Origin: a virus
Lineage: Duplodnaviria > Heunggongvirae > Uroviricota > Caudoviricetes
Virus record (IMG/VR): IMGVR_UViG_3300043470_002422
Direction: 5' to 3' (one strand)
DNA: 64,000 nt
How positions within the stretch are numbered: position 1 is the first letter of the stretch; each line of letters begins with the position of its first letter. The translations under genes and the position numbers were made by a program. Shown one piece after another: positions 21,325-61,439 of this stretch. The notes beneath the pieces were generated by a model. It was not told the DNA's origin. It was given only the letters and a program-made list of their open reading frames with translations, and did not search any database.

Positions 21325-21338
21325 GACCGTATATTTAT
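21325..21338 (+). promoter_or_regulatory. Class A variant GACCGTATATTTAT
   Basis: Upstream of ATG 21351. Confidence 0.5.
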
Positions 21339-21350
21339 AAAAATAACAAT

Positions 21351-22253: not shown

Positions 22254-22254
22254 A

Positions 22255-22728
22255 ATGAAAGAAACACTAGAATTGAGAATGTATGGATTAGTTCCATATA
22301 ACTTAAGCCCCATCCAGCAAGGGATCCAATTTGGACACGCAGTTGTTGAGTATGGGTTAACCCATTTCGGAGAAAAAAATTACCGGGATTGGGCTAACAA
22401 TCATAAGACCTTTATCATTCTCAATGGAGGGACTACTAATAATTCCATAGATAAAGAAACAGGAAATCCAAAAGGAACTTTAAATCAGCATGCGGTAAAC
22501 CTTAGAGATATGGGGATTCCTTTTTGCACCTTTTATGAGCCTGACTTAGGGGATCAATTAACAGCAGTAGTTTTTCTAGTAGACGAACATGTCTTCAACA
22601 GAGAAAAATATCCGGATCCAAGAGATCCATTTAATCAGGATTGGGCTTGGTCTGAGCATCTTAGCACAGAAGAACTTTCTAGAGTTTTGCAAATGAGAGA
22701 CTTTTTAAAACAATTTAGATTAGCATAA
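22255..22728 (+). CDS. PTH2-like (peptidyl-tRNA hydrolase 2 fold) protein
   Basis: SPIQQGIQFGHAVV resembles the PTH2 GKxAAQCSHAAV motif, and the downstream segment has the matching topology. Confidence 0.4.
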   Translation: MKETLELRMYGLVPYNLSPIQQGIQFGHAVVEYGLTHFGEKNYRDWANNHKTFIILNGGTTNNSIDKETGNPKGTLNQHAVNLRDMGIPFCTFYEPDLGDQLTAVVFLVDEHVFNREKYPDPRDPFNQDWAWSEHLSTEELSRVLQMRDFLKQFRLA

Positions 22729-23249: not shown

Positions 23250-23269
23250 ATTAAATAAAATAAAATATC

Positions 23270-23629
23270 ATGGACAATCAAATTGATGAAATGACCGGAA
23301 CCTTGGAAGAAATGAAAGGTGCATTCGTAGGCTCTTTAGTGCGTAACAACAAAAAGATCCGCGAAGACAGAGCAATCGCAATCGCAGAAGCTGCTCAAAT
23401 GCTCTACAAAAGAAAAGTTGAGGACACAGAATTAGCTATTAAACAGCTAAAAAGAGAAAGAGAATCTATGTTAGACCTTAGTCCAACAACAGCAGATTCT
23501 TTGGTAATGGCTTCAGATTTTGACGCAGAAGCTTTCATCCAAAAGGATGTAGAGATCGGTCTCAAAATTAGAAATTTAGAGATCACTCTAGAAATTGCAA
23601 GAACTCGTTACAACCACTTATTTGAATAA
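23270..23629 (+). CDS. coiled-coil hypothetical protein
   Basis: ORF with heptad-like repeats. Confidence 0.45.
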   Translation: MDNQIDEMTGTLEEMKGAFVGSLVRNNKKIREDRAIAIAEAAQMLYKRKVEDTELAIKQLKRERESMLDLSPTTADSLVMASDFDAEAFIQKDVEIGLKIRNLEITLEIARTRYNHLFE

Positions 23630-23634
23630 TCCGT

Positions 23635-24516: not shown

Positions 24517-25574
24517 TGAATACGAGCAAAATAGTAATTGGACTAAACTACGGAGACGAAGGAAAGGGGTTAACCACCTCTTTCCTCTGTTCCCAATCTA
24601 AAAATCCCATCGTTGTTAGATTCAACGGGGGTCACCAAGCAGGTCACACAGTATCCTTCAAAGGAAAAAGACATGTGTTTTCTAGCTTTGGATCAGGAAC
24701 ACTTCAAAAAGTTCCAACGTACTGGAGCAAATATTGCACATTCTCTCCGACAGCATTTCTAAATGAATTAAAATTTCTACTGGATAAATCTTTAAAATTC
24801 CCAGGATTTTATCTTGATCCTTTATGTCCAATCACAACACCTTACGATTTATACAGCAACCGAAAAGATTCCCAGAATGTGAGTCATGGAACAGTCGGGG
24901 TAGGATTTGGATCAACTCTTAAAAGACACGAAAACTTTTATAAGCTTTATGCACAGGATATGTTCTATCCAGAAGTCTTCAAAGCAAAATTAGAAAACAT
25001 TGCTAAGTATTACGGAATGGAGGATCTCGAAATCGATAACTTTTTAGAAGACGTAACAATTGTAACTACTATAGTTCAATTGACAAATGAAAAAGTTCTT
25101 TTAAATTATTCAGATGCTATATTTGAAGGGGCTCAAGGGGTTCTTTTAGATATGGATTTTGGATTTTTTCCAAACGTTACCAGATCTAATACAACATCTA
25201 AAAATGCACTGGAAATTTCTCCTCTGCATTCAAACGAAATCTACTACATCACAAGATCTTATTTAACTAGACACGGAGCTGGATTTCTTCCAGGAGAAAA
25301 AGAACTTCCCCTAATTAATAATGAATTGGAGACAAACGTCTCTCATGAATACCAAGGAAATTTTAGAACAGCAGATTTAGATTTGGATCTTCTAAACTAT
25401 TCTTTAAAATGTGACTCTCATTTTTCTGAGGGTCAAACCAAAAATCTAGTAATTACCTGCATGGATCAATATCCAATAGATGTAGAAAAATTGCTAGAAA
25501 AATTAGAAATTAAATTCAATAAAGTGTTCGTCTCTTACGGGGATTCACTTGATAAAATACAACAATTAAAATGA
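24516..25574 (+). CDS. adenylosuccinate synthetase homolog, short archaeal/PurZ-like type (352 aa)
   Basis: P-loop GDEGKG and NGGHQAGHTV motifs. About 80 aa shorter than bacterial PurA, as in phage PurZ. Confidence 0.65.
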   Translation: MNTSKIVIGLNYGDEGKGLTTSFLCSQSKNPIVVRFNGGHQAGHTVSFKGKRHVFSSFGSGTLQKVPTYWSKYCTFSPTAFLNELKFLLDKSLKFPGFYLDPLCPITTPYDLYSNRKDSQNVSHGTVGVGFGSTLKRHENFYKLYAQDMFYPEVFKAKLENIAKYYGMEDLEIDNFLEDVTIVTTIVQLTNEKVLLNYSDAIFEGAQGVLLDMDFGFFPNVTRSNTTSKNALEISPLHSNEIYYITRSYLTRHGAGFLPGEKELPLINNELETNVSHEYQGNFRTADLDLDLLNYSLKCDSHFSEGQTKNLVITCMDQYPIDVEKLLEKLEIKFNKVFVSYGDSLDKIQQLK

Positions 25575-26044
25575 AAATAACAGAAAAATATGTCTTCTTT
25601 TGGAACGGGATTTATTCTCAGTGGCACAAAGCAAAAATGACAATCGACGGTGTTGAGTATAGCTCTTGTGAGCAATATATGATGCATCAAAAAGCTATCG
25701 TCTTCAGCGACTTTTATATTGCATCTCAGATACTTCTGACAGAGAATCCGAAAGAGCAAAAAGCACTCGGAAGACAAATTCAAGGGTTTGATAAAAACAT
25801 TTGGGATTCGGTTTGCTTGAGCATAGTCTATAAAGGAAATCTAGCTAAATTTTCTCAAAATGAGGATCTAAAATCAGATCTTCTTTCCACCGAGAATAGA
25901 ATCCTGGTAGAAGCTTCACCCTTGGATCAAATTTGGGGAATTGGAATGGCAGAGGATCATCCAAATATAGAATCTCCAGAACACTGGAGGGGACTGAACT
26001 TGCTTGGATGGGCGTTAAACTTAGTAAAAAAAGAATTAAATTAA
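25571..26044 (+). CDS. NADAR / YbiA (DUF1768) domain protein
   Basis: FFW...SQW......YSSCEQYMMHQKA...F...NPKEQKALGRQIQGF....W...L..KF.QN..L...LL.T....L.E.SP.D..WGIG. Confidence 0.6.
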   Translation: MKITEKYVFFWNGIYSQWHKAKMTIDGVEYSSCEQYMMHQKAIVFSDFYIASQILLTENPKEQKALGRQIQGFDKNIWDSVCLSIVYKGNLAKFSQNEDLKSDLLSTENRILVEASPLDQIWGIGMAEDHPNIESPEHWRGLNLLGWALNLVKKELN

Positions 26045-26284
26045 ATGAAAAGTACAGAATTTGCATATTGGTTACAAGGGTTCTTCGAACTTAGCGAAAC
26101 TAACACCTTGTCGGAAAGACAGGTCGAAACTATTAAAAATCATTTGAAGCTGGTTTTCTATCATGAGATAGATCCTTCCTATTCTACAGATCCTGTAGTA
26201 CAGGAAACCATGCAAAAAATTCACGACGGAGAACCTCAAAAGAGAACTCCGAGAAATTCTAACCCAAGAACTATAAAATGTTAA
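26045..26284 (+). CDS. small hypothetical protein (tandem paralog A)
   Basis: F..WL.GFFE...T..L.ERQVETIKNHL is shared with the next ORF. Confidence 0.45.
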   Translation: MKSTEFAYWLQGFFELSETNTLSERQVETIKNHLKLVFYHEIDPSYSTDPVVQETMQKIHDGEPQKRTPRNSNPRTIKC

Positions 26285-26547
26285 CCATGGAAGAAACAAG
26301 AAATTTTGTTATCTGGCTTGATGGATTTCTAGAAGCTTGCGGGCCAACTCCAACTAAGGAGCAGGTCGAAAAAATAAAATCCAGGCTGAATGGAATTTTT
26401 GAGCATGTTGCAGAAATCCCAGCTAAGGAGAACGAAAAACCGTCTCTAGAGGAATTAGGACAAGAACATGGATTTAATGTATATCCCGGATTTCCTGGAT
26501 CAGGATTTCCTTTTAGAGATGAAGGTGGTGGTTTATTAAGATGCTAA
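26278..26547 (+). CDS. small hypothetical protein (tandem paralog B)
   Basis: FVIWLDGFLEA...PTKEQVEKIKSRL. Confidence 0.45.
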   Translation: MLTMEETRNFVIWLDGFLEACGPTPTKEQVEKIKSRLNGIFEHVAEIPAKENEKPSLEELGQEHGFNVYPGFPGSGFPFRDEGGGLLRC

Positions 26548-26892
26548 ATGAGTAGAGTAATTTATATAGCTTCTCCTTATTCTAATCCCGACCCTGATGT
26601 TACCGAGGAGAACTTTAAAAAAGTCTCGAGGCTTGCGGCTAAGCTTTGCTCAGAGGGTCAGGTTGCAATTTCCCCTATTACTTATGGTCACACGCTGGTT
26701 GGATTTAAACCAATGCCAATTGACTGGCCATTCTGGGAGAATTTTTGTCTTTCCATTCTCCAGGCTTGTGACGAAATCATAGTTTATAAAATGGAAGGTT
26801 GGGATAGATCGAGAGGTGTTGCAGAAGAGGTCGAATTTGCCAGAAGAAAAGGAATCCAGATCACGTATATGGAATATGATCCTTCTATCTAA
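26548..26892 (+). CDS. nucleoside 2-deoxyribosyltransferase-like superfamily protein
   Basis: IYIASPYS...V.SPI....W...CDEII.....W..S.G...E...A...G matches the Rossmann-like NDT/DNPH1 pattern. Confidence 0.5.
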   Translation: MSRVIYIASPYSNPDPDVTEENFKKVSRLAAKLCSEGQVAISPITYGHTLVGFKPMPIDWPFWENFCLSILQACDEIIVYKMEGWDRSRGVAEEVEFARRKGIQITYMEYDPSI

Positions 26893-26906
26893 CCGTATAT
26901 TTAAAT
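26891..26906 (+). promoter_or_regulatory. Class A variant AACCGTATATTTAAAT
   Basis: Upstream of ATG 26918. Confidence 0.5.
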
Positions 26907-26917
26907 AAAATACCTTT

Positions 26918-27361
26918 ATGGAATTAAGAGAATATTTCGAAACAAATCCGGACTCTATCCCTTATCTAGAAAGACTAGAAAGTGAATGGGAACAGTATGG
27001 AAAGATAATCATCGGATGTGATTATGACGACACAATTTCCCCATGGAAGATGGAGAATTTTAATCCAGAAAGGGTTCTAGAAGTTCTAAAGGTTGCTAGA
27101 GAAACCGGAGCTTACATCGTAATCTTTACTTCTTGTGACAAAGCAAGATATCCAGAAATCGAAGACTATTGTAAAAGCATTGGCCTCACAATCGACTCGA
27201 TCAATAAAAATCCAATCGACTTACCTTACGGTAAAAAAGGTAAAATCTATGCCAACATTTTCCTGGATGACAGAGGTGGAATGAATGAATCCCTAAACAT
27301 TCTAGAAATGGCAACGTATAGAATTAGAGGAAAAAGAAGAGTTTTAGGAATCAACGTATAA
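26918..27361 (+). CDS. HAD-superfamily phosphatase-like protein
   Basis: Motif I CDYDDTI and a late IFLDDR motif. Confidence 0.45.
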   Translation: MELREYFETNPDSIPYLERLESEWEQYGKIIIGCDYDDTISPWKMENFNPERVLEVLKVARETGAYIVIFTSCDKARYPEIEDYCKSIGLTIDSINKNPIDLPYGKKGKIYANIFLDDRGGMNESLNILEMATYRIRGKRRVLGINV

Positions 27362-27541
27362 TTAAGAAAATGAAAATGAACCCAAAAGAAAAAGAATTGG
27401 AAAATATCCAATCCCAACAAAACCCTTCAAAAGAGGTTAATCCAACCGAGTCTGTAATAATAAAACAGATCGAGGATGATTTTGAATATCAAGAATATTA
27501 TTCAGAAAATTCTCCTAATTTCGACGTAGATTAATCAGGAG

Positions 27542-27556
27542 GACCGTATATTCAAT
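27542..27556 (+). promoter_or_regulatory. Class A variant GACCGTATATTCAAT
   Basis: Upstream of ATG 27572. Confidence 0.5.
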
Positions 27557-27571
27557 AAAATAATAAATATT

Positions 27572-29101
27572 ATGTTTAAATGTAATTCACTATTCTACAC
27601 AGACGGCTACAAAATTGGCCACAAAAGAATGCTAGCACCAGGAACAACTCGTTTATACGGAACCTGGATTCCACGAAGTATTAAACACGCTCCAAAAGGA
27701 GTTAAAAAAATCGTATCGTTTGGCCAGCAACTAGCTGTTAAATGGTTACACGATGAATTCGAAGAAAATTTCTTCAAGCTTCCTTTAGAAGAAGCAATGG
27801 AATTCGGAAATGATATGGCAATGTATCTCGGCCTCGAGTATGATGCTTCTCATTTCGAAGCTCTCCACAAATTAGGTTACTTGCCTATCAAAGTTAAATC
27901 TTTACCAGAAGGTATCGAAACTCTTCCAAATGTTCCACACATGACCTTCATTAATACCGTGGATGGATTTGCTTGGTTAACCCTTTATTTGGAAACCATC
28001 ATCTCTTCATTAGCTTGGAAGCCTTCAACATCAGCTACAATCGCTTTACAGTACAAAAGAAACCTGATCGAATGGGTAAGAAAAACAGACCCTAAAAACA
28101 TCTGGTTAGTTCCTTTCCTAGCTCACGACTTCTCGGCTAGAGGTTTGTCTCCTTGGGACATGTTAGCAAGCGGTTTAGGACACGCTACATCATTCAGAGG
28201 TTCAGACACAATAGTTTGTATCCCAGCAGCTCGATACTTCTACAACGAGCCTAAAAACGAGGTCTGCATCAATTCTGTAAACGCTTCAGAACACTCAGTA
28301 TCTACCACCAAAATTTTCACAGTCGGCGAACAACAAATGATAGCAGACTGGTTAAGAGAATTCGACAAAGGTATCCTTTCAATCGTTTCAGACACATTCG
28401 ATTTATGGACACTAATCACCAAATATTTACCTGCCAACAAAGAGGCTATCATGGCCAGAGACGGTAAATTGGTTATCAGACCTGACTCAGGAGACCCAGT
28501 AGATATTATTTGCGGATTAGAAAATAAAGTTCTTGAGGAAGGAGTGGGATATAAAGAAGAATACAAAGAAAGCCCAGAATACAAAGGAGTTATCGAATTA
28601 CTTTGGGACATCTTCGGAGGTACAATCAACGAAGAAGGTTACAAAGTACTTGATCCTCACATCGGAGCAATCTACGGGGACTCTATTACCTTGGACAGAC
28701 AAATCCAAATCTACGAAAGATTAGCAGCTAAAGGATTTGCAACTACCAATATCGTTTTAGGTATCGGTTCTTACACCTACCAAATGAACACCAGAGACAC
28801 CTTAGGCTTCGCAGCTAAAGGAGCATGGTTCGAAGTAGAAGAAAACGGTACTAAAGTAGGCTACGACATCTACAAAGATCCTATCACAGACGATGGAACT
28901 AAGAAATCCTTAAAAGGACTTATTAGAGTCGATGAAGTTTCAGTAACTTCCGAGGAAACTGGAATTACTTATACTAAGTATGAAGTAAAAACCCAATGTA
29001 CCCCAGAACAAGAAGAAGGAGGCATCTTACAAACCATCTACGAAAATGGTAAATTCTACAATCAAACTACATTAACTGAAGTTAGATCAAAATTAAACTA
29101 A
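27572..29101 (+). CDS. nadV: nicotinamide phosphoribosyltransferase (NAMPT/NadV) family; candidate Namat
   Basis: 509 aa with the N-terminus MFKCNSLFYTDGYKIGH, typical of NAMPT. Confidence 0.7.
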   Translation: MFKCNSLFYTDGYKIGHKRMLAPGTTRLYGTWIPRSIKHAPKGVKKIVSFGQQLAVKWLHDEFEENFFKLPLEEAMEFGNDMAMYLGLEYDASHFEALHKLGYLPIKVKSLPEGIETLPNVPHMTFINTVDGFAWLTLYLETIISSLAWKPSTSATIALQYKRNLIEWVRKTDPKNIWLVPFLAHDFSARGLSPWDMLASGLGHATSFRGSDTIVCIPAARYFYNEPKNEVCINSVNASEHSVSTTKIFTVGEQQMIADWLREFDKGILSIVSDTFDLWTLITKYLPANKEAIMARDGKLVIRPDSGDPVDIICGLENKVLEEGVGYKEEYKESPEYKGVIELLWDIFGGTINEEGYKVLDPHIGAIYGDSITLDRQIQIYERLAAKGFATTNIVLGIGSYTYQMNTRDTLGFAAKGAWFEVEENGTKVGYDIYKDPITDDGTKKSLKGLIRVDEVSVTSEETGITYTKYEVKTQCTPEQEEGGILQTIYENGKFYNQTTLTEVRSKLN

Positions 29102-31203: not shown

Positions 31204-31683
31204 ATGGCAAAAGTAATCAAACCAACAGACTCAGATCAAGAAGTAGAATTTTATCCGGCAGTATTTTTAGCAGGATCCATCGAAATGGGAAAAGCTGAAG
31301 ACTGGCAAAAAACAGTTGAGAAAGAATTAGAAAAATTAGACGTTACAATTTTTAATCCTAGAAGAGATGACTGGGATAGCTCATGGACTCAAGAGCAATC
31401 TAATCCACAATTTAATCATCAGGTTAATTGGGAGTTGAACAAATTGGAAAGATGTGATGCCATCTTCATGTACTTCTCTCCAGAAACACAATCTCCAATA
31501 TCTCTACTAGAACTAGGAAGATATTCCACATACGGAAAAATGATTGTTTGTTGTCCTAAAGGATTCTGGAGAAAAGGAAACGTAGATATCCTTTGCACCA
31601 GAGAAAATATTCCAGTATTTGAGGATCTACAATCTGCTATCGGGGCTTTGAAAACTAGAATCAACCAACAAATAATAGATTAA
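31204..31683 (+). CDS. nucleoside 2-deoxyribosyltransferase-like (Nuc_deoxyri_tr2-type) protein
   Basis: VFLAGSIEMG...FNPRRDDW...CDAIFMYF...S.ISLLELG. An AGGAGG Shine-Dalgarno-like sequence lies upstream. Confidence 0.5.
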   Translation: MAKVIKPTDSDQEVEFYPAVFLAGSIEMGKAEDWQKTVEKELEKLDVTIFNPRRDDWDSSWTQEQSNPQFNHQVNWELNKLERCDAIFMYFSPETQSPISLLELGRYSTYGKMIVCCPKGFWRKGNVDILCTRENIPVFEDLQSAIGALKTRINQQIID

Positions 31684-32211: not shown

Positions 32212-32943
32212 ATGTTTAAATTTTATGAAGTTGGAGGAAAAATAAGAGACGAAATTTTAGAATTATCTTCTAAAGATGTTGATTATGTAGCAGTTCCGAA
32301 AGAAGAATTACTAGATACAGTTGAGAAGGCAGAAGATATGTTCAGCATGTTAGAATCTTTTCTAAGAGTAGAAAAATTTGAGATCTTCTTGGTAACCCCA
32401 GACTGTTTTACAATTAGAGCAAAATTCCCAGCAGGACACAAATACTCAGGGGTTGCAGACTTTGTAATGGCCAGAAAGGAAATTGGTTATATTCCAGGAA
32501 CTAGAACCCCAATTGTTAAGCCGGGAACCCTATTTGACGATCTTCAGAGAAGAGATTTTACCCTAAACGCTTTAGCAAAAGACGAGGACGGAACCATAAT
32601 CGATTTCTTTGGAGGAATAGAGGATCTAAAGAAAAACCGTTTAAAAACTCCACTAGACTGCAAAATAACTTTTGATGACGATCCGCTTAGAATTCTTAGG
32701 GCCATCAGATTTTGTATAACTAAAGGGTTTTGGATTGGACCCTATATGGACGGGGTAATTCAGGATTACGACTACGAAGGAAAAATGGGGGTAGTTTCTA
32801 TGGAGAGAATAAGAGAAGAATTGTTCAAATGTTTCAAACACGATACATTAAAAACCCTCAAAACACTTCACGAATACCCAGCCCTAAGAAACTACATTTT
32901 TGAAAAAAATACACTTTGGTTAAAACCCACAATGGAGCAATAA
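32212..32943 (+). CDS. tRNA nucleotidyltransferase / poly(A) polymerase family head domain (CCA-adding enzyme-like, lacks a C-terminal HD)
   Basis: FYEVGGKIRDEILELSSKDVDYV and RRDFTLNALA are class II nucleotidyltransferase head motifs. Confidence 0.6.
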   Translation: MFKFYEVGGKIRDEILELSSKDVDYVAVPKEELLDTVEKAEDMFSMLESFLRVEKFEIFLVTPDCFTIRAKFPAGHKYSGVADFVMARKEIGYIPGTRTPIVKPGTLFDDLQRRDFTLNALAKDEDGTIIDFFGGIEDLKKNRLKTPLDCKITFDDDPLRILRAIRFCITKGFWIGPYMDGVIQDYDYEGKMGVVSMERIREELFKCFKHDTLKTLKTLHEYPALRNYIFEKNTLWLKPTMEQ

Positions 32944-32948
32944 AATAT

Positions 32949-33635
32949 ATGATTTACGTATCAATAGACATCGAAACTACAGGACTAAATCCTGAAACTT
33001 GCCAAATCCTTTCTATAGGAGCAGTTATAGAGGACACTCAAAAACAATTGGCTTTCGAGGAAATTCCGAAATTCCATTGCGCAATACTGAAAAATGAAAG
33101 GGATATAATCTCCGGTGAGATTTATGCTTTGAATATGAATAGGGATTTGATAGAAAGCATCACCTACTATTCTACAGCTAAAGATCAAGATGAAAAGAAT
33201 GATCTAGTTCATTTTACAGGAATGCAGTTTGTTAGAGAAGAAGATATTGCAGAACATTTTTTCCAATTCCTTTATCGGAACGGATTCAAGCCAAACGAGT
33301 CTGATCTACCCCTGAATAAAAAAATTAAAATAATAAATGGAATATCTTATCCTGTTTTGGATTCTTCTGTAAAGCCAATCACCATAAATGTAGCTGGGAA
33401 AAATTTCTCTGGATTTGATAGAAAATTTCTAGATTTACTTCCTAGATGGAAGCAACTAATCAGAACAAGAAGTAGAGTTATAGATCCAGGTGTATTGTTT
33501 GTAGACTGGGAAAATGATGACGCAGTTCCTTCTTTAGATTCCTGCAAAAAAAGAGCACTAATAGAAGGAGTGGTTACCCATAATGCTTTAGAGGATGCTT
33601 GGGATGTTATTCAAGTCTTAAGAACAAAATACTAA
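32949..33635 (+). CDS. DEDD-family 3'-5' exonuclease (DnaQ/RNase T-like)
   Basis: Exo I motif SIDIETTGL and Exo III motif HNALEDAWD. ATG 32949 is the likely start. Confidence 0.6.
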   Translation: MIYVSIDIETTGLNPETCQILSIGAVIEDTQKQLAFEEIPKFHCAILKNERDIISGEIYALNMNRDLIESITYYSTAKDQDEKNDLVHFTGMQFVREEDIAEHFFQFLYRNGFKPNESDLPLNKKIKIINGISYPVLDSSVKPITINVAGKNFSGFDRKFLDLLPRWKQLIRTRSRVIDPGVLFVDWENDDAVPSLDSCKKRALIEGVVTHNALEDAWDVIQVLRTKY

Positions 33636-34219
33636 TGAAAATAATCTATTTAGACATAGACGGAGTTCTTAATTGTGAAAAAGCATACCGAGATGGATTT
33701 TGCAAATATCAAGAATGGCCAGATACCAAAAGGGAGGATGGTAAAAATTACCACCAGACTTTTTATCCCCCGGCTAAGGACCTTCTAAATAAGCTTATTC
33801 TAGAAACAGGTGCTAAGGTTGTTGTCTCTTCTACCTGGAGACATTCGGGTTTAGAATTTATTAAAAACGTTTGGACTCAAGAGAAAATGGAAGGAGAAAT
33901 CATAGGGATAACCCCTTCCTTTAGAGGAGACATTGAAGGGTATACAATTCCTAGAGGATGTGAGATTGAATATCACCTTGAAAAAGAATTAGGATTTCAT
34001 CACATCAATTGGGACAAAGACACTCAGCAAGAATATATTGACAAATCTAACGTCGATAATTACATTATCATAGACGACGATTCAGATATGTTGTACACGC
34101 AAAGAAATCATTTTGTTCATGTCTTACCTTCTCCTAGGAACAAAGAGGGATTTAACGAAAAATATTTTGAAGAAGCACTAAAAAAATTATCAAAAACAGT
34201 TATAGATTTGAACTACTGA
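33635..34219 (+). CDS. HAD-superfamily phosphatase
   Basis: Motif I YLDIDGVLN, then VVSSTWR and IIIDDDSDM. The TAATG start and stop overlap. Confidence 0.5.
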   Translation: MKIIYLDIDGVLNCEKAYRDGFCKYQEWPDTKREDGKNYHQTFYPPAKDLLNKLILETGAKVVVSSTWRHSGLEFIKNVWTQEKMEGEIIGITPSFRGDIEGYTIPRGCEIEYHLEKELGFHHINWDKDTQQEYIDKSNVDNYIIIDDDSDMLYTQRNHFVHVLPSPRNKEGFNEKYFEEALKKLSKTVIDLNY

Positions 34220-34233
34220 CCGTATATTTAAAT
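34218..34233 (+). promoter_or_regulatory. Class A motif GACCGTATATTTAAAT 15 nt upstream of the tRNA-like gene
   Basis: The same element that precedes protein-coding genes here precedes an RNA gene. Confidence 0.5.
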
Positions 34234-34248
34234 GTAACAAAAACAAAT

Positions 34249-34332
34249 GCTCTGAGAAATTAATTTGACATTGGTAGTCAAGCCAGCTTCTAAACCTGGT
34301 TTTTAGGGGTTCGATACCTCTTCAGAGCACCA
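34249..34332 (+). tRNA. tRNA-like gene with a CUA (amber-reading) anticodon, encoded 3'-CCA and a non-canonical extended acceptor-to-D linker
   Basis: Perfect 7-bp acceptor stem GCUCUGA/UCAGAGC. T-arm AGGGG-UUCGAUA-CCUCU. Anticodon arm CCAGC-UUCUAAA-CCUGG, so the anticodon is CUA. Discriminator A then CCA. There are 9 nt where 2 nt are expected between the acceptor and D stems. Confidence 0.5.
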
Positions 34333-34373
34333 AAGATGAAACTTTTAAAACAAAAAGATATATAATAAACAAT

Positions 34374-34736
34374 ATGAAATAGATTAACAAATTTCAAGAA
34401 ACAAAACTGGTAACTATTACCAGATCCGATATCCATCCAGGATATCAAATTCCTCAAACTGCTCACTCTATCGCAGATTTTGCATACGAGCATCCGGAAG
34501 CATTTAAAGAATGGAAAGAGACATCAAACTCTGTCATCTGCTTATCCGTACCATCAGAGGAAAAACTACTCGACCTTTATTCAAAATTATCAGGACAAAC
34601 TCCGACGACCAAGTTCTTCGAGCCTGACATCAACCAATGGACTTCTATCTGTTTATACGGAAGCCCCGAGGTTAGGAAAAAACTTTCACATTTACCATTA
34701 GCACTTAAAAAAATCGAAGACTATGTTATAGATTAA
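34374..34736 (+). CDS. pth2: peptidyl-tRNA hydrolase PTH2 with an in-frame TAG at codon 3 (needs amber suppression or a non-canonical start)
   Basis: ATG-AAA-TAG, then an open frame to TAA 34736. The translation KLVTITRSDIHPGYQIPQTAHSIADF...PEAFKEW...ICLSVPSEEKLLDLYSKL aligns with human PTRH2 [26 protein letters not shown]...PEMLKQW...VVVKAPDEETLIALLAHA. There is no ATG, GTG or TTG after the TAG. Confidence 0.5.
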
Positions 34737-34755
34737 TAACAAGAAAGAACTACTT

Positions 34756-35307
34756 GTGGCCATGAAATCTTGTCCACAAACAGAAACCCAATCTGTTCTA
34801 GATCACGGATTTTCTGTTAAGAATTACCTATTCGATCTTCTGGATCATTTAGAAAAAGGAACCCCTTTGAAGTTCGAATGGAAACTTCCAGAATGGATCT
34901 ACGAGGAGAAAGAATTTATTCTTAAGACCTTACCCTCAAGACAAACTTTAAAGATATACACGGTGTTTCACGACTGTGGTAAGCCTCAGTGTTTAACCAT
35001 CGACGAGGAGGGCAAAAGACACTTCCCTAATCACGCAGAGGCTTCGTACAATACTTTCATCAATCTCTTTGATGATAATGCAGCAGCGGACTTAATACGC
35101 AGAGATATGGACATTCATTTACTTAAGTCCGAAGGTGTATCTGACTTCTGTAAAAATCCCAATGCAATAGCATCTTTAATTACTGGACTTGCAGAGATTC
35201 ACTCTAACGCTGAAATGTTTGGAGGGATCGAGAGCACTAGCTTTAAGATTAAGTGGAAGTGCATCTCCAAGAGAGGAAAACAAATTATTCAAACCATAAA
35301 AAAATAA
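34756..35307 (+). CDS. HD-domain protein (CCA-enzyme-type HD phosphohydrolase-like)
   Basis: VLDHGFSV...FHDCGKP...FPNHAE. Confidence 0.5.
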   Translation: MAMKSCPQTETQSVLDHGFSVKNYLFDLLDHLEKGTPLKFEWKLPEWIYEEKEFILKTLPSRQTLKIYTVFHDCGKPQCLTIDEEGKRHFPNHAEASYNTFINLFDDNAAADLIRRDMDIHLLKSEGVSDFCKNPNAIASLITGLAEIHSNAEMFGGIESTSFKIKWKCISKRGKQIIQTIKK

Positions 35308-35968: not shown

Positions 35969-36298
35969 ATGAAAACAATCGAACAAAAAAGAGAAGATGC
36001 TATAAAGTATCTAAGACAAACTTCAAAACACTTATTTATGGATAAGAAAGAAACCCTAGTAAGAGTAGTTGAAATCGGACCAGAGGAATTTGAAAGAGTT
36101 ACCTTGACTAAAGAGGGAAAAGAAGACAAGAGAAAAATTGGACTCGAACATTTCTTTAAGTACTATCCAAATGATCCAAAGAACATTTGCAAAGTAAACC
36201 TATTTCCAAAGGATCACGGACTAAAATCAGTCAAGATGAAGCTGCTAAAAAAATACCAGCAGATGGAAACAATTCCAGATGCTGACCGTATAATTTAA
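35969..36298 (+). CDS. hypothetical protein
   Basis: ORF only. Confidence 0.45.
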   Translation: MKTIEQKREDAIKYLRQTSKHLFMDKKETLVRVVEIGPEEFERVTLTKEGKEDKRKIGLEHFFKYYPNDPKNICKVNLFPKDHGLKSVKMKLLKKYQQMETIPDADRII

Positions 36299-36314: not shown

Positions 36315-37256
36315 ATGGCAAAAAAATCAGATAGCGTTTACCAAAACGAAATTACCCCAACAGAAATTCTAACCACAAGATCAGCCATTCCGGCAGACTA
36401 TCACACGGATGATTTCACAGAAAATTTTCTAGGAGAAATCTTTGATCTAAAGAGTGGAAAGTACTACAGTCAGAATGCTAGATCTAGATACTACCCAAAG
36501 CAAGAGGACAAGCATCTTTGTCCAGGTCACTGGCAAGGCTACAGATGGGCAATTCAGAATTTGACTGAACCTGGAGATTGGGTTTTTGATCCAACTTGCG
36601 GAACTGGAACCACTCTAGTTGAGGCTTATAATCACGGTAGAAATTCAGCAGGAGTTGAATTAGAATTTCCTAAAATCGCTAGGGCAAACATAGATCACCA
36701 AAGAGCTAGAACAGATGTATCTGCAAATCTAATGCAAGGTGATGCTAGAGAAACTGCTAAGAATTTGGATTCATTGGGAATTAAAAAAGGTCAACTAAGT
36801 CTGGTTATTAACGGAACACCATATCCAAAAATCAGTGGTAAATCTTCGGATGCTCCGGAAAGAAAGAAACTTGTTAAGAAAGTAGAAGGTGAGGAAGAAG
36901 CTCCAGAAATGGTTGATAACACTTTTGATTATCAAAATCCTAACAACATCGGTTTAACAAAAGGAACTGAATATTGGGGATTGGTTAATTCGATGTATAC
37001 CCAAGCCATTGAGTATTTAAAACCAGGTGGATATTTCGTTATCTTAATTAAGGACATGATTCAGAACAAGAAGCCATACCTTTTAAGCAGCATGATTGCC
37101 AACGAAGTTCTAGAGAACAATCCTGATGTTGAATACCACGGTTTGTATCTTCACAGACACATTCCAGAAACAATGTTTATGAGAACTTACCCTAAAATGT
37201 ATCCGGGTGTTCCAGTTCCTTCTTACCAAGCAGGAATAGTTCTAAGAAAAAAATAA
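36315..37256 (+). CDS. putative SAM-dependent DNA (N6-adenine / N4-cytosine type) methyltransferase
   Basis: Motif I FDPTCGTGTTLVEA and a downstream NGTPYP, a degenerate (D/N)PPY. Confidence 0.45.
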   Translation: MAKKSDSVYQNEITPTEILTTRSAIPADYHTDDFTENFLGEIFDLKSGKYYSQNARSRYYPKQEDKHLCPGHWQGYRWAIQNLTEPGDWVFDPTCGTGTTLVEAYNHGRNSAGVELEFPKIARANIDHQRARTDVSANLMQGDARETAKNLDSLGIKKGQLSLVINGTPYPKISGKSSDAPERKKLVKKVEGEEEAPEMVDNTFDYQNPNNIGLTKGTEYWGLVNSMYTQAIEYLKPGGYFVILIKDMIQNKKPYLLSSMIANEVLENNPDVEYHGLYLHRHIPETMFMRTYPKMYPGVPVPSYQAGIVLRKK

Positions 37257-37342: not shown

Positions 37343-38302
37343 GTGAAAATTACCGAGCACATTAAGAAAGGAAAAGAGAATAAAAAGACCCTGTTCTCTT
37401 TTGAAATACTTCCCCCTGTAAAAGGACAAGATATAAATTCAATCTACAATGCAATAGATGGACTTTTGGAATTTAACCCATCATTTATAGATGTTACTTA
37501 TCATAGGGAAGAATATGCTTTCAGAAAGAATCCCGATGGATCTCTAGTTAAATATTCAACCAAGAAGAGACCAGGAACAGTTGCTATCTGCTCGGCAATC
37601 CAAAACAAATACAATATAGATTCTGTTCCACATTTGATCTGTGGGGGATTTACTAAAGAGGAAACTGAAAATGCCCTTATAGATTTAAATTTTTTAGGAA
37701 TTGATAATATTCTAGCTCTCCGTGGGGATTCTATTAAAGGGGAATCTTCTTACTTGGCAAATCCAGAAGGAAATAAAAATTCAGTCGAGCTAATGTCTCA
37801 GATAAGGGATCTCAATGGAGGAAAATATCTCCTCGATGGATTTGAAGGGGACAAGTCCGATTTCTGCTACGGCGGAGCTTGCTACCCGGAAAAATATTCA
37901 GAATCTCCAAATATGGAATTTGATATAGAATGGATGAAGAAAAAAGTGGAATTAGGGTCAGAATACTTCGTTACTCAGATGTTCTTCGATAATAAAGTCT
38001 ACTGGAAATTTGTTCAAAAGTGCAGAGAGAATGGAATAGACGTTCCAATTATCCCAGGAATAAAACCAATCACAGCACAGAGTCAAATTTGGGGTTTACC
38101 CAAGATCTTTGGAATTCATCTTCCTTACGAGTTATCAAATGATCTAAGAAAAACCGGAACTAATTCCGAAGCTGCTGAGATTGGAATCAAATGGGCTGTT
38201 GAGCAGTGCAAAGATCTAATTAGAGGGGGAGCTCCAGTTCTTCATTTCTACACGATGTCAAAATCCAAATCAACTGCAGCTATCTGCAAGAAGATTTTCT
38301 AA
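37343..38302 (+). CDS. metF: 5,10-methylenetetrahydrofolate reductase (MetF family)
   Basis: Collinear matches to E. coli MetF: FSFEILPP, FIDVTYH, VPHLICGG, ILALRGD, YFVTQMFFD, GIDVPIIPGIKP, HFYTMSK. The start appears to be GTG. Confidence 0.75.
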   Translation: MKITEHIKKGKENKKTLFSFEILPPVKGQDINSIYNAIDGLLEFNPSFIDVTYHREEYAFRKNPDGSLVKYSTKKRPGTVAICSAIQNKYNIDSVPHLICGGFTKEETENALIDLNFLGIDNILALRGDSIKGESSYLANPEGNKNSVELMSQIRDLNGGKYLLDGFEGDKSDFCYGGACYPEKYSESPNMEFDIEWMKKKVELGSEYFVTQMFFDNKVYWKFVQKCRENGIDVPIIPGIKPITAQSQIWGLPKIFGIHLPYELSNDLRKTGTNSEAAEIGIKWAVEQCKDLIRGGAPVLHFYTMSKSKSTAAICKKIF

Positions 38303-61436: not shown

Positions 61437-61439
61437 ATT

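What the first reader, a model, noticed from the sequence alone, without database searches (positions are those of the whole stretch)
32212..35307. Candidate tRNA 3'-end repair and anti-toxin module (CCA-adding head, DEDD exonuclease, HAD phosphatase, HD domain, tRNA, PTH2)
Six consecutive genes encode activities that act on tRNA ends. A class II nucleotidyltransferase head (CCA-adding) lacks its usual HD tail. There is an RNase T/DnaQ-like 3'-5' exonuclease and a HAD phosphatase that could act on 3'-phosphate or 2',3'-cyclic ends. A stand-alone HD domain resembles the phosphodiesterase tail of CCA enzymes. There is a tRNA-like gene, and PTH2 with a second PTH2-like gene at 22255-22728. Host abortive-infection toxins often damage tRNA 3' ends or aminoacyl moieties, for example MenT nucleotidyltransferases, CCA-removing nucleases and GNAT acetyltransferases such as TacT and AtaT. 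Pth is known to detoxify acetylated aminoacyl-tRNA. This cassette may be a phage tRNA-repair toolkit analogous in purpose to T4 Pnkp/Rnl1, built from different parts.
Basis: inference. Interest (0 to 1): 0.7.

Follow-up and report, generated by a model that had tools for sequence, protein, structure and literature searches.

The report
Amber-gated tRNA-end enzymes with odd suppressor tRNA
A large phage of Bacteroidota carries a strangely built amber-suppressor tRNA next to two tRNA-end enzyme genes that each have a conserved stop codon (TAG) at codon 3. These enzymes can probably be made only when that tRNA reads through the stop, a small self-contained genetic switch I found no description of.

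Summary
The HD protein's closest solved structure is the C-terminal part of a class II tRNA nucleotidyltransferase.

The six genes are not a conserved cassette. In 80 related loci the CCA head almost never has these neighbours.

The conserved unit is tRNA(CUA)-like + PTH2-like + HD, with the last two adjacent or fused.

Both ORFs begin ATG-(1-3 codons)-TAG-ATT. I found this in 39 distinct sequence contexts from phage contigs. It is always TAG, although TAA is 77% of stops in the window, and usually no canonical start follows.

The tRNA-like gene is missed by ARAGORN and Rfam. It belongs to a covariation-supported family with a 9-nt acceptor-D connector and a 9-nt anticodon loop centred on CUA. 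This family or a canonical tRNA(CUA) lies within 6 kb of at least 28 of 42 fetched PTH2 loci (redundant contigs included), and in none of the 80 control loci.

Best reading: suppressor-dependent (amber-gated) expression of two tRNA 3'-end hydrolases. The proposed anti-toxin repair role is untested.

The parts
32212..32943 (+). Class II nucleotidyltransferase, head plus neck only (243 aa). CCA-adding, A-adding or poly(A) type cannot be resolved from sequence.
   Evidence: PF01743 E 7.9e-16. phrog_24229, a 245-aa 'tRNA nucleotidyltransferase' profile, 4.5e-60. PDB CCA/PAP enzymes E 1e-17, covering residues 5-233. NCBIfam CCA addition/repair 3.7e-27, partial match. 333 related IMG/VR stretches; the 80 fetched are 66-81% identical.
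32916..33635 (+). DEDDh 3'-5' exonuclease (RNase T/DnaQ superfamily) with an insertion between ExoI and ExoII.
   Evidence: PF00929 35 bits against 24. Motifs DIETTG, NFSGFD and HNALED read from the translation. PADLOC generic DEDDh 3e-9. RNA versus DNA substrate not resolved.
33599..34219 (+). HAD-superfamily phosphatase of the HAD_SAK_2 type.
   Evidence: PF18143 71.7 bits against 27.5, E 1e-19. DxD motif (LDIDGV), SST and DDD motifs in the translation. phrog_1818 2e-28.
34249..34332 (+). Non-canonical tRNA(CUA)-like gene. It has a 7-bp acceptor stem, a 9-nt connector (GAAATTAAT), a 5-bp D stem, a 4-bp anticodon stem with the 9-nt loop CUUCUAAAC, a normal T arm, discriminator A, and an encoded CCA at 34330-34332.
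   Evidence: Not called by ARAGORN. Rfam tRNA 16.9 bits against 29. MFE cloverleaf -25.5 kcal/mol, z -2.6. Family alignment A5: 95% of cells paired, 13 of 21 pairs with compensatory changes, 0 of 500 shuffles as good. Covariance model R1 scores it 86.8 bits; unseeded members score 57-67 and ordinary tRNAs at most 44.
34336..34365 (+). 9-codon mini-ORF (MKLLKQKDI*) between the tRNA-like gene and the PTH2 start. Relevance unknown.
   Evidence: Read from the sequence. Not examined in relatives.
34374..34736 (+). PTH2-like gene with ATG at 34374, AAA, in-frame TAG at 34380-34382, ATT, then 117 sense codons and TAA. There is no canonical start after the TAG.
   Evidence: Translation. PF01981 24.0 bits against 23. 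Family profile against solved PTH2 structures, E 4e-7. The ATG-x(1-3)-TAG start is conserved in all relatives examined.
34723..35307 (+). HD protein resembling the body/HD tail of a CCA enzyme. Its frame starts ATG 34723, TTA, in-frame TAG 34729-34731, ATT AAT..., and runs into the ORF that the ORF listing starts at GTG 34756. The gated start overlaps the 3' end of the PTH2 ORF.
35969..36298 (+). Small conserved protein (109 aa) that also follows the HD gene in L001, L002 and L003. Function unknown.
   Evidence: N-terminal similarity (MKTIEQKREDAIKYLRQTSKHLF against MKTTEENKAEVLNYLNKSSKHLF and others), seen by eye in the ORF lists. No family hit. Below the tblastn 1e-5 cut-off.
22255..22728 (+). 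Distant paralogue of the PTH2-like family with a normal ATG start. It sits in an NAD/ADP-ribose gene island.
   Evidence: hhalign against A2, probability 92%, E 6e-7, shared F-[FY]-EPD-x-x-Q-x-T motif. phrog_3668 1e-17. No Pfam PTH2 hit. Neighbours are a PRTase and a Macro domain protein.

Best explanation
The region is a translation-support island. Its conserved core is a three-part module.

1. A structurally non-canonical amber-suppressor tRNA (anticodon CUA).
2. A PTH2-like esterase gene.
3. An HD phosphohydrolase gene homologous to the HD/body tail of class II CCA-adding enzymes.

Proposed mechanism. Both protein genes start at a normal ATG in an A-rich context and hit an in-frame UAG after 1-3 sense codons. 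Without a suppressor the ribosome makes only a di- to tetrapeptide. When the adjacent tRNA(CUA) is processed, carries CCA, is charged and can compete with RF1, the UAG is decoded and the full enzymes are made. Expression of the two enzymes is therefore gated by, and reports on, suppressor-tRNA activity.

Proposed function. The enzymes act on tRNA 3' ends: PTH2-like on the ester bond of peptidyl-, N-blocked aminoacyl- or aminoacyl-tRNA, and HD on 2',3'-cyclic or 3'-phosphate ends and/or in tRNA binding. The most likely targets are the suppressor tRNA itself or the peptidyl-tRNAs that suppression and drop-off generate. That would give a recycling or homeostatic loop comparable in logic to RF2 autoregulation.

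The upstream CCA head, DEDDh exonuclease and HAD phosphatase are variable neighbours. They would mature or repair tRNA 3' ends; the other family members shown with their 3' flank lack an encoded CCA.

Shown: gene identities, conservation of the TAG, the tRNA family and its structure, and physical linkage.
Inferred: that the tRNA decodes these TAGs, the enzyme substrates, and the direction of the feedback.
For: 1. The in-frame TAG is conserved.
- There are 39 distinct contexts (30 PTH2, 9 HD), plus the window PTH2 start and a few others. All read start codon-(0-3 codons)-TAG (the start is ATG in all but one context, which has TTG; one HD context reads ATG-TAG directly).
- Protein identity among these falls to 36%.
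- The stop is always TAG, although TAA is 71 of 92 stops in the window.
- A control scan for the same architecture found TAG 36, TAA 11 (mostly spurious) and TGA 1.

2. Usually no canonical start follows.
- The window PTH2 ORF has none in 117 codons.
- L089 has GTA after the TAG and no start until codon 56.
- The L007 PTH2 gene has a second, internal TAG.

3. The codon after the TAG is ATT in 35, GTA in 3 and ATA in 1, so it is always a purine at +4. From memory, that is the efficient context for amber suppression.

4. tRNA(CUA) genes are physically linked.
- Canonical ones lie within 6 kb in L006, L007 (two copies), L008, L090, L114, L119 and L120.
- The non-canonical family is in the window and in L091, L092, L094-L099, L101, L103, L111/112, L115/116, L117 and L121.
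- Lower-scoring CUA-loop elements (17.7-26 bits on model R1; not included in A5 or the covariation count) lie just upstream of PTH2 in L104, L105/106, L113 and L118.
- A regex scan hit 20 of 42 PTH2 loci and 0 of 80 control loci covering 1.0 Mb. No R1-type hit occurs in the controls.
- In mycobacteriophages Bxz1 and Myrna a PTH2-like gene lies 130-300 nt from a tRNA(CUA).

5. The phages are otherwise standard-code.

6. Four loci have a leader ORF M-x-TAG-I-x-T-Y-...-P-P-stop. Its last codons form the 5' arm of a terminator hairpin upstream of PTH2. This shows that translation past the UAG (by readthrough, or by restart at the adjacent AUU) is sensed at a second level.

7. PTH2 and HD are adjacent, or fused in L008, L104, L113, L120, L121 and others.

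8. The HD protein matches the CCA-enzyme tail.
Against: - There is no expression, proteomic or aminoacylation evidence.
- The tRNA's 9-nt connector and 9-nt anticodon loop are unprecedented for a working elongator tRNA, and it may not be charged.
- About a quarter of PTH2 loci show no tRNA(CUA) within 6 kb (L001-L005, L089, L093, L102, L107-L109). Whole genomes were not scanned.
- ATT and ATA are possible near-cognate start codons, so termination-reinitiation is not excluded for most loci.
- In Bxz1 and Myrna the TAG is followed by a GTG with a good Shine-Dalgarno spacing, so there the TAG need not be read.
- Some loci have an internal ATG just before the conserved core.
- The Lys of the PTH2 'GK' motif aligns with Tyr/Gln in this family, so classical Pth2 chemistry is uncertain. 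Its catalytic role is from memory.
Confidence: 0.55

Rival explanations
1. Start-stop minigene with reinitiation. The ATG-x-TAG is a 2-4-codon mini-ORF. The ribosome terminates at the UAG and restarts at the abutting AUU, AUA or GUG without any suppressor. The mini-ORF may resemble a lambda bar minigene that produces peptidyl-tRNA, which would link it thematically to a peptidyl-tRNA hydrolase. The nearby tRNA(CUA) genes would serve other purposes.
For: The codon after the TAG is nearly always ATT or ATA, which are near-cognate starts, or GTG in Bxz1 and Myrna, where a Shine-Dalgarno sequence is correctly spaced for that GTG. Mini-ORFs of this length are the classical source of peptidyl-tRNA drop-off (from memory: lambda bar/pth). 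About a quarter of loci lack a nearby tRNA(CUA).
Against: Reinitiation does not need TAG specifically, yet the stop is TAG in every one of at least 39 contexts in a genome where TAA is 77% of stops. The GTA variants (L089, L090, L094) are not start codons, and L089 has no other start before codon 56. L007 needs readthrough of an internal TAG. The device is confined to this module and co-localises with tRNA(CUA) genes: 20 of 42 PTH2 loci against 0 of 80 controls.
Confidence: 0.22
2. The six genes form one co-selected tRNA 3'-end repair cassette that counters host toxins (MenT-like, CCA-trimming or TacT/AtaT-like), analogous in purpose to T4 Pnkp/Rnl1.
For: All six activities can act on tRNA 3' ends. 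The HAD is of the RNA-repair 'SAK' type. The HD resembles the repair-competent tail of CCA enzymes. PTH2-type enzymes hydrolyse N-blocked aminoacyl-tRNA (from memory). The genes are contiguous on one strand with short or overlapping junctions.
Against: The synteny is not conserved. The head and the PTH2/HD pair are about 40 kb apart in related genomes. There is no ligase or kinase nearby. There are no defence or anti-defence family hits. A simpler housekeeping role, maturation of phage tRNAs that lack encoded CCA, explains the head and DEDD genes. The model does not explain the amber gating.
Confidence: 0.15
3. Decay or annotation artefact. The PTH2-like frame is a pseudogene that lost its start, the tRNA-like element is a degraded tRNA, or the phage uses a TAG-sense genetic code throughout.
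For: The PTH2 frame is not an ORF under standard rules. ARAGORN and Rfam reject the tRNA.
Against: The same 'defect' is conserved in dozens of lineages with intact downstream ORFs. The tRNA stems covary. TAG terminates large genes in the window, for example the 1697-aa ORF. ORF coverage gains no more from TAG-sense than from TGA-sense translation.
Confidence: 0.03

Closest known systems
Stop-codon recoding in phages with phage-encoded suppressor tRNAs (crAss-like, Lak and others; Borges et al., bioRxiv 10.1101/2021.08.26.457843)
   Same: A phage-encoded tRNA(CUA) is predicted to decode in-frame TAG so that certain genes are translated only once the tRNA is available. The hosts use the standard code.
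   Different: In those phages 26-71% of genes are recoded, mainly late structural and lysis genes. Here the genome is standard-code. Only two tRNA-end enzyme genes carry one TAG each, always at codons 2-5 next to the start (plus occasional extras in relatives). That paper does not mention peptidyl-tRNA hydrolases (0 occurrences). The suppressor here is often structurally non-canonical.
prfB (RF2) autoregulation through an early in-frame stop codon
   Same: A translation-factor gene carries a conserved early in-frame stop whose decoding efficiency sets the gene's own expression. The stop acts as a sensor of the state of the translation apparatus.
   Different: prfB uses UGA at codon 26 and a +1 frameshift, and it senses RF2 (from memory). 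Here the stop is UAG at codon 3, read in frame, presumably by a dedicated tRNA. Feedback by the product is only inferred.
Lambda bar minigenes and host Pth
   Same: Two- to four-codon ATG...stop mini-ORFs in a phage, connected with peptidyl-tRNA hydrolase biology.
   Different: The bar minigenes end in UAA or UGA, stand alone, and are toxic to pth-defective hosts (from memory). Here the mini-ORF is fused in frame to the hydrolase gene itself and always ends in UAG.
Multifunctional bacterial CCA-adding/repair enzyme (E. coli Cca type, head + HD tail); solved class II enzyme 3WFO
   Different: The two parts are separate genes with three genes and a tRNA between them. They lie far apart in relatives, and the HD part is instead adjacent to or fused with PTH2. 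Identifying 3WFO as the Aquifex CC-adding enzyme is from memory, and is not verified.
T4 Pnkp/Rnl1 tRNA repair
   Same: A phage-encoded end-healing phosphatase (HAD superfamily) near tRNA-related genes.
   Different: No kinase domain and no RNA ligase were found, so there is no sealing step. Any action would be on 3' ends, not on anticodon-loop breaks.
Non-canonical cloverleaf tRNAs (allo-tRNAs with 8/4 or 9/3 acceptor/T stems; PMC5389517) and expanded-anticodon-loop suppressors
   Same: tRNAs that escape standard detectors. Some have nonsense anticodons and some occur in phages.
   Different: This family keeps the 7/5 acceptor/T geometry. Instead it has an 8-9-nt acceptor-D connector (consensus ...TAAT) and a 4-bp anticodon stem with a 9-nt loop. 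I found no description of this architecture.
Archaeal/eukaryotic PTH2 (PF01981)
   Same: Pfam hit just above the gathering score. The profile matches solved Pth2 structures over nearly the whole length.
   Different: The score is borderline. The GK motif is replaced by PGYQ and DAG-T by EPD-x4-T. The family was found only in phage contigs, with no hit in 185k bacterial and archaeal genomes when its two conserved peptide patterns were used.

Membership tests
tRNA (Rfam RF00005 / ARAGORN definition) | Detected at the curated threshold by standard tools | tested here: not met
   ARAGORN finds 0 genes in the window. Rfam gathering search finds 0 hits. Best tRNA score is 16.9 bits against 29.
tRNA (Rfam RF00005 / ARAGORN definition) | Four-helix cloverleaf with 7-bp acceptor stem, 5-bp T stem, GTTCRA T loop and discriminator + CCA | tested here: met
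   MFE cloverleaf. 95% of cells paired and 13 of 21 pairs with compensatory changes across 5 family members. CCA encoded at 34330-34332.
tRNA (Rfam RF00005 / ARAGORN definition) | 2-nt connector (positions 8-9) and 7-nt anticodon loop closed by a 5-bp stem | tested here: not met
   The connector is 8-9 nt in all family members. The anticodon stem is 4 bp with a 9-nt loop, or equivalently a 7-nt loop UUCUAAA/CUCUAAA closed by a C-C or C-A mismatch.
Amber suppressor tRNA | CUA at anticodon positions 34-36, flanked by U33 and a purine at 37 | tested here: met
   The loop C-U-U-C-U-A-A-A-C is invariant in subfamily 1 and C-C-U-C-U-A-A-A-A in subfamily 2. It aligns with the CUA of canonical phage tRNA(CUA) genes.
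Amber suppressor tRNA | Is aminoacylated and decodes UAG on the ribosome | not testable with these tools
   Only indirect evidence: conserved in-frame TAGs in adjacent genes.
PTH2 peptidyl-tRNA hydrolase (PF01981) | Sequence match at or above the Pfam gathering score | tested here: met
   24.0 bits against 23, E 4.9e-5, covering residues 8-77. Family profile against PDB Pth2 chains, E 4.1e-7 to 1.2e-3. NCBIfam Pth2 scores far below its cut-off, 18.6 against 126.
PTH2 peptidyl-tRNA hydrolase (PF01981) | Conserved catalytic residues (Lys of the GK motif; Asp/Thr of DAG-T; assignment from memory) | tested here: inconclusive
   In the HMM alignment GK aligns with PGYQ. DAG...T aligns near the invariant EPD...T, but with uncertain register.
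Class II tRNA nucleotidyltransferase (CCA-adding enzyme) | Head domain with GGxVRD and DxD, RRD, and motif D (E/D)DxxR | tested here: met
   VGGKIRD, DVDYV, RRDFT and DDPLRILRAIRF are read in the translation. PF01743 E 7.9e-16. Aligned to solved enzymes.
Class II tRNA nucleotidyltransferase (CCA-adding enzyme) | Body and tail domains in the same polypeptide | tested here: not met
   The 243-aa protein aligns only to residues ~38-250 of 390-580-aa enzymes. phrog_24229 is itself a 245-aa profile.
Class II tRNA nucleotidyltransferase (CCA-adding enzyme) | Adds CCA rather than poly(A) or A only | not testable with these tools
   NCBIfam hits to CCA, A-adding and PcnB models are all partial and similar in score.
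HD-domain metal-dependent phosphohydrolase (PF01966) | Sequence match at the Pfam gathering score | tested here: not met
   13.7 bits against 22, E 0.08. A few homologues carry a precomputed PF01966 hit.
HD-domain metal-dependent phosphohydrolase (PF01966) | HD fold with invariant H...HD...H...D metal ligands | tested here: met
DEDDh exonuclease (PF00929) | ExoI DxE, ExoII NxxxFD, ExoIII Hx4D | tested here: met
   The motifs are read in the translation of 32916-33635. The Pfam match covers only the N-terminal 58 residues but exceeds the cut-off.
HAD_SAK_2 (PF18143) | Sequence match at the gathering score and the DxD nucleophile motif | tested here: met
   71.7 bits against 27.5. LDIDGV at residues 18-23.
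T4-type tRNA repair system (Pnkp + Rnl1) | Polynucleotide 5'-kinase and RNA ligase partners | tested here: not met
   Neither was found among about 30 window proteins scanned with Pfam or PHROGs. There is only a weak N-terminal HAD-type similarity to phrog_415 'polynucleotide kinase', E 0.0075. The whole window was not scanned.
Globally TAG-recoded phage (genetic code 15) | Many genes with in-frame TAG; fragmented ORFs under code 11 | tested here: not met
   Code-11 ORF coverage is 0.89-0.92. TAG-sense translation gains no more than TGA-sense. TAG ends 11 of 92 ORFs, including the 1697-aa one.

The most novel reading that the evidence does not exclude
A self-contained amber-suppression circuit in otherwise standard-code phages. 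A new structural class of suppressor tRNA (9-nt acceptor-D connector, 9-nt anticodon loop) is the obligatory decoder of a UAG placed at codon 3-5 of two dedicated tRNA 3'-end enzymes: a PTH2-like esterase and a CCA-enzyme-derived HD domain. These enzymes in turn recycle or restrain that tRNA. This would make a translational autoregulatory loop, reinforced in some phages by a UAG-containing leader-peptide attenuator. It could also represent the minimal first step on the path to stop-codon reassignment.
Probability: 0.4. Interest if true: 0.9.

Novelty: new variant of a known kind. Interest (0 to 1): 0.8.

Why it matters
Phage suppressor tRNAs are common, but their role in standard-code phages is unclear. 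Here they have concrete, conserved target codons in two genes of known biochemical class. That turns a vague question into testable reporter, proteomic and tRNA-sequencing experiments in cultured systems such as Tenacibaculum phage pT24 and mycobacteriophages Bxz1 and Myrna.

Other consequences:
- A tRNA architecture exists that current detectors miss. Suppressor tRNAs, and therefore recoding, may be under-counted in viromes.
- Two widespread gene families are systematically mis-annotated: truncated (pT24 BPT24_235) or not called at all. The HD family alone has 1335 proteins in the large database.
- The PTH2-like/HD pairing with tRNA(CUA) suggests these are dedicated partner enzymes of suppressor tRNAs, which may be useful for genetic-code engineering.
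- The module may be an early intermediate in the evolution of stop-codon reassignment.

Tried and rejected
- ARAGORN and Rfam on the window found nothing at threshold. The tRNA was recovered only by eye and then by a custom covariance model.
- ATGNNNTAGATTA as a general promoter or initiation motif: rejected. The window has only two exact matches, and they are the PTH2 and HD starts. I first dismissed the second match as chance.
- The Bacteroidota -33/-7 promoter pattern and the sigma-70 and terminator scans gave nothing useful for the operon structure.
- Global TAG reassignment: rejected.
- Quadruplet (UAGA) decoding by the 9-nt loop: rejected as a productive route. By reading the sequence, the +1 frame hits a stop within about 12 codons in the window PTH2 and HD genes and in L001.
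- An amber initiator tRNA: rejected. Pair 1:72 is G-C, the anticodon stem lacks the three G-C pairs, and an in-frame ATG (TTG in one case) is present upstream in every context examined.
- An exact 3'-half pattern of the window tRNA in IMG/VR gave 0 hits.
- blastn of a family member against annotated phages gave no match.
- Alignment A2 was too diverse for the search for related loci.
- The genome-contig scan found no relatives.
- phmmer of PTH2b against PDB gave nothing.
- Literature searches for PTH + suppressor tRNA in phages and for this tRNA architecture found nothing relevant.
- I did not scan whole genomes of the phages that lack a nearby tRNA(CUA), because it would have used too many calls.

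Full report
**1. What is in the window**

Between 31.2 and 40.3 kb all genes are on the + strand, with short gaps or overlaps.

| Coordinates | Feature | Main evidence |
|---|---|---|
| 32212-32943 | 243-aa class II nucleotidyltransferase | PF01743 E 7.9e-16; phrog_24229 'tRNA nucleotidyltransferase' 4.5e-60, itself a 245-aa profile |
| 32916-33635 | DEDDh exonuclease | PF00929 above cut-off; ExoI-III motifs readable |
| 33599-34219 | HAD phosphatase | PF18143 'HAD domain in Swiss Army Knife RNA repair proteins', E 1e-19 |
| 34220-34755 | 536-nt stretch with no ORF of convincing coding character (only two overlapping spurious ORFs) | Holds the tRNA-like gene and the PTH2-like frame |
| 34756-35307 | HD protein | Pfam HD only E 0.08; see section 6 |

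The nucleotidyltransferase aligns to head+neck of solved CCA-adding enzymes and poly(A) polymerases, over residues 5-233. It carries the GGxxRD, DxD, RRD and DDPLR motifs.

- At 34249-34332 there is a cloverleaf ending in CCA. ARAGORN does not call it and Rfam scores it 16.9 bits against 29.
- At 34374-34736 there is a frame whose product matches PTH2: PF01981 24.0 bits against 23, and family profile against solved Pth2 structures E 4e-7.
- That frame reads ATG AAA TAG ATT AAC..., and there is no ATG, GTG or TTG anywhere after the TAG.

The second PTH2-like gene at 22255-22728 is a distant relative (hhalign probability 92%).

**2. Host and coding**

- A 1697-aa PKD-repeat protein carries a type IX secretion CHU_C domain.
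- Relatives include Tenacibaculum and Maribacter phages and huge phages of 460-735 kb.
- Both point to a Bacteroidota host.
- The window uses the standard code. ORF coverage is 0.92 under code 11, and TAG ends 11 of 92 ORFs, including the largest one. TAG-sense translation gains no more coverage than TGA-sense.

**3. The six genes are not a conserved cassette**

The CCA head is widespread and well conserved: 333 related IMG/VR stretches, of which the 80 fetched are 66-81% identical.

Within ±7 kb of those 80 homologues:

| Neighbour | Loci with it | Note |
|---|---|---|
| HAD relative | 21 | 27-33% identity, other positions |
| DEDD relative | 3 | |
| PTH2-like | 0 | |
| HD | 0 | |

Two contigs carry both the head and PTH2, about 40 kb apart.

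No RNA ligase or kinase was found among about 30 neighbouring proteins. No defence-related family matched apart from a generic DEDDh hit.

The 'toolkit' is a local juxtaposition of functionally coherent genes, not a unit kept together by selection.

**4. The conserved unit and the conserved stop codon**

PTH2-like and HD genes travel together.
- They are adjacent in the window and in L001-L003, L090, L092, L095-L099, L102 and L108/109.
- They are fused into proteins of about 300 aa in pT24 and in L104, L105/106, L113-L116, L118, L120 and L121.
- The fused form corresponds to phrog_14850.

Every PTH2-like gene examined in Bacteroidota-phage contigs starts ATG-(1-3 codons)-TAG. The next codon is ATT in nearly all, ATA in pT24 and L119, and GTA in L089, L090 and L094.

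The HD gene does the same.
- In the window the HD frame starts ATG 34723, TTA, TAG, ATT AAT..., in frame with the ORF listed from 34756.
- All nine distinct stand-alone HD genes have this start 9-10 codons upstream of the internal Met at which the ORF tables and predicted database proteins begin. The intervening peptide I-x-x-K-x-L-[IL]-x-x-M is conserved.

In total I counted 39 distinct contexts: 30 PTH2 and 9 HD. The codon after the TAG is ATT in 35, GTA in 3 and ATA in 1.

A control scan for ATG-x(1-3)-stop followed by a long ORF with no early start gave TAG 36, TAA 11 (mostly spurious) and TGA 1.

TAA is 77% of stops in the window. The exclusive use of TAG therefore cannot be drift.

In pT24 the annotated CDS BPT24_235 starts 135 nt downstream of this ATG.

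**5. The tRNA-like gene belongs to a new structural family with anticodon CUA**

Its parts are:
- acceptor stem GCUCUGA/UCAGAGC;
- a 9-nt connector, GAAAUUAAU, where normal tRNAs have 2 nt;
- D arm UUGAC-AUUGGUA-GUCAA;
- a 4-bp anticodon stem with loop C-UUCUAAA-C;
- a 5-nt variable region;
- T arm AGGGG-UUCGAUA-CCUCU;
- discriminator A, then CCA.

The same architecture occurs in L094, L101, L115/116 and L121, with different stem sequences. Across these, 95% of cells are paired, 13 of 21 pairs show compensatory changes, and 0 of 500 shuffles do as well. Sliding the 3' partners destroys the signal.

A covariance model (R1) separates the family clearly:

| Sequences | R1 score (bits) |
|---|---|
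| Seed members | 87-95 |
| Unseeded members L091, L092, L095-L099, L103, L111/112, L117 | 57-67 |
| Ordinary tRNAs | 44 or less |
| 80 control loci (1.0 Mb) | nothing above 38 |
| Bxz1 and Myrna tRNA(CUA) | about 44 |

The second subfamily has loop C-CUCUAAA-A. Further odd CUA-loop elements lie 220-290 nt upstream of PTH2 in L104, L105/106, L113 and L118.

Canonical tRNA(CUA) genes lie within 6 kb of PTH2 in L006, L007 (two copies), L008/pT24, L090, L114, L119 and L120.

A simple anticodon-arm + T-loop regex hits 20 of 42 PTH2 loci and 0 of 80 controls. With the ARAGORN calls and the odd elements added, at least 28 of 42 fetched PTH2 loci (redundant contigs included) have a same-strand CUA tRNA or tRNA-like element.

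The link extends to Actinobacteria phages. In Bxz1 and Myrna a PTH2-like gene sits inside the tRNA array, 130-300 nt from a tRNA(CUA). Its GTG start is immediately preceded by ATG-TAG or GTG-TAG.

Of the non-canonical family members I inspected, only the window copy encodes CCA. The others whose 3' flank was shown run A-CAAA or similar (A-CAG in L094, A-CGAA in L098). This gives the phage CCA head, and possibly the DEDDh trimmer, an ordinary job.

**6. The HD protein is a CCA-enzyme tail**

- The AF2 model is confident, pLDDT 92.4.
- Foldseek was uninformative.
- The family profile hits the same chains at E 0.0015. It aligns ...HDiGKP...G...F..H... at chain residues 276-356, the region directly after the neck.
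- The metal-ligand histidines and aspartates are invariant in 25 homologues.

So the head (243 aa) and the HD protein (183 aa) look like a split HD-type CCA enzyme. The HD part has been captured by PTH2.

From memory, the HD domain of E. coli Cca has 2',3'-cyclic phosphodiesterase, 2'-nucleotidase and phosphatase activity. I believe 3WFO is the Aquifex CC-adding enzyme. mentions that structure but does not confirm the accession.

**7. Mechanism**

Two readings fit a start-stop-ORF arrangement: amber suppression from the upstream ATG, or termination at the UAG followed by reinitiation at the next codon. I favour suppression at about 0.55 against 0.22, for these reasons.

- Only TAG is ever used.
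- The device is confined to this module and to a few neighbouring ORFs, and it co-localises with tRNA(CUA) genes.
- GTA is not a start codon, and L089 has no other start until codon 56.
- The L007 PTH2 gene needs readthrough of a second, internal TAG.
- The base after the TAG is always a purine. From memory, that is the favourable context for suppression.
- The ATG sits in the A-rich context typical of the other starts in these loci.

Four loci (L001, L003, L004, L102) add a second layer.
- They have a leader ORF M-x-TAG-I-x-T-Y-...-P-P-TAA.
- Its last codons (CCTCCTTAA) form the 5' arm of a hairpin of -28 to -34 kcal/mol, followed by a T-run, just upstream of PTH2.
- A ribosome that passes the UAG would stall on Pro-Pro-stop and open the terminator.

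Placing the UAG at codon 3-5 makes failure cheap. From memory, RF1 acts poorly on very short nascent chains, so this position may also favour the tRNA.

What the enzymes do is inferred. Ester hydrolysis and phosphoester hydrolysis at tRNA 3' ends are likely, probably on the suppressor tRNA or on peptidyl-tRNAs arising from suppression and drop-off. The result would be either recycling (positive loop) or restraint (negative loop, as for RF2).

Nothing here supports it specifically.

**8. Caveats**

- There are no expression data.
- The tRNA's unusual connector and loop may be incompatible with normal decoding.
- About a quarter of PTH2 loci show no tRNA(CUA) within 6 kb, and I did not scan whole genomes.
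- ATT and ATA could serve as weak starts.
- In the mycobacteriophages a well-spaced Shine-Dalgarno sequence serves the GTG after the TAG.
- The PTH2 GK motif is not conserved.
- The close family was not found in 185,579 bacterial and archaeal genomes using its two conserved peptide patterns, so it appears phage-restricted.

**9. Novelty**

Suppressor-tRNA-dependent translation in phages is known from recoded phages. The key paper on it describes genome-scale recoding of late genes and does not mention peptidyl-tRNA hydrolases.

Literature searches found nothing on three points:
- a gene-specific amber gate on PTH2/HD genes;
- a PTH2-suppressor tRNA partnership;
- this tRNA architecture.

I rate it a new variant of a known kind, of high interest.

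Noticed in passing
L001 7835-7985; L003 4777-4925; L004 5868-5997; L102 5863-5997: A leader ORF M-(M/N)-TAG-I-x-T-Y-(5-6 aa)-P-P-TAA. Its CCTCCTTAA forms the 5' arm of a long hairpin (-28 to -34 kcal/mol) closed by TTAAGGAGG and a T-run, just upstream of the gated PTH2 gene. It looks like a transcription attenuator that reads UAG readthrough and Pro-Pro-stop stalling.
   Followed up: partly
L115/L116 5018-5962; L118 5011-5994: A 311-322-aa ORF directly after the non-canonical tRNA also starts ATG ATG TAG ATT. It has four CPxHG...GCxKC zinc-ribbon-like repeats and, by eye, a C-terminal region that looks like a DUF559/Vsr-type endonuclease (homing-endonuclease-like). No family search was run. 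The amber gate is therefore not limited to PTH2 and HD.
   Followed up: no
L122 (Bxz1) 1471-1851 and 2157-2229; L123 (Myrna) 1471-1833 and 1963-2034: In cluster C mycobacteriophages the PTH2-like gene (gp154/gp84) lies inside the tRNA array next to a tRNA(CUA), which Bxz1 annotates as 'tRNA-OTHER'. Its GTG start is preceded in frame by ATG-TAG or GTG-TAG.
   Followed up: partly
L008 (Tenacibaculum phage pT24) 5956-6909: The annotated CDS BPT24_235 starts at 6091. The conserved ORF, a PTH2-HD fusion, begins at ATG 5956 with TAG at codon 3, so the record truncates the PTH2 domain. A 'tRNA-Sup' lies 2.5 kb upstream.
   Followed up: yes
L007 (LR756501) 5986-6370: This PTH2-like gene has a second in-frame TAG in the middle of the domain (after ...FAQEFP). 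Two tandem tRNA(CUA) genes lie 2 kb downstream.
   Followed up: partly
window 21303-29101: An NAD/ADP-ribose metabolism island containing a PRTase-like protein, the PTH2-like paralogue, a Macro domain, adenylosuccinate synthetase, NADAR, and a 509-aa NAPRTase/Nampt-family protein. It may be an NAD+ reconstitution, counter-defence type pathway.
   Followed up: no
window 15814-20907: A 1697-aa protein with at least 8 PKD repeats and a C-terminal CHU_C type IX secretion sorting domain. It is a phage protein carrying a Bacteroidota-specific secretion signal.
   Followed up: no
window 35969-36298; L001 9588-9956; L002 6561-6917; L003 6557-6925: A small protein of unknown function (N-terminus MKT(I/T)EQ...YL..(T/S)SKHLF) follows the HD gene in several lineages. 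It may be a fourth module component.
   Followed up: no
L001 5939-7772: A GatB/YqeY-like ORF and a 454-aa class IIb (Asp/Asn/Lys-type) aminoacyl-tRNA synthetase-like ORF, both judged from sequence by eye, lie immediately upstream of the PTH2 leader. An 11-13-tRNA array lies 4 kb downstream. The synthetase could be the charging enzyme for a suppressor.
   Followed up: no
window 34336-34365: A 9-codon ORF (MKLLKQKDI*) between the tRNA-like gene's CCA end and the PTH2 start. Also, ATG CTC TGA overlaps the 5' acceptor strand at 34247-34255.
   Followed up: no
window 31204-31683: A nucleoside 2-deoxyribosyltransferase-like gene (PF15891, E 9e-38) lies just upstream of the cassette. Window 36315-37256 is a DNA N6/N4 methyltransferase, and 37343-38302 is an MTHFR.
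   Followed up: no
window 60621-62180: Two ORFs (271 and 246 aa) lie in the same frame, separated only by TAG plus one codon. I did not examine whether this is another readthrough product.
   Followed up: no
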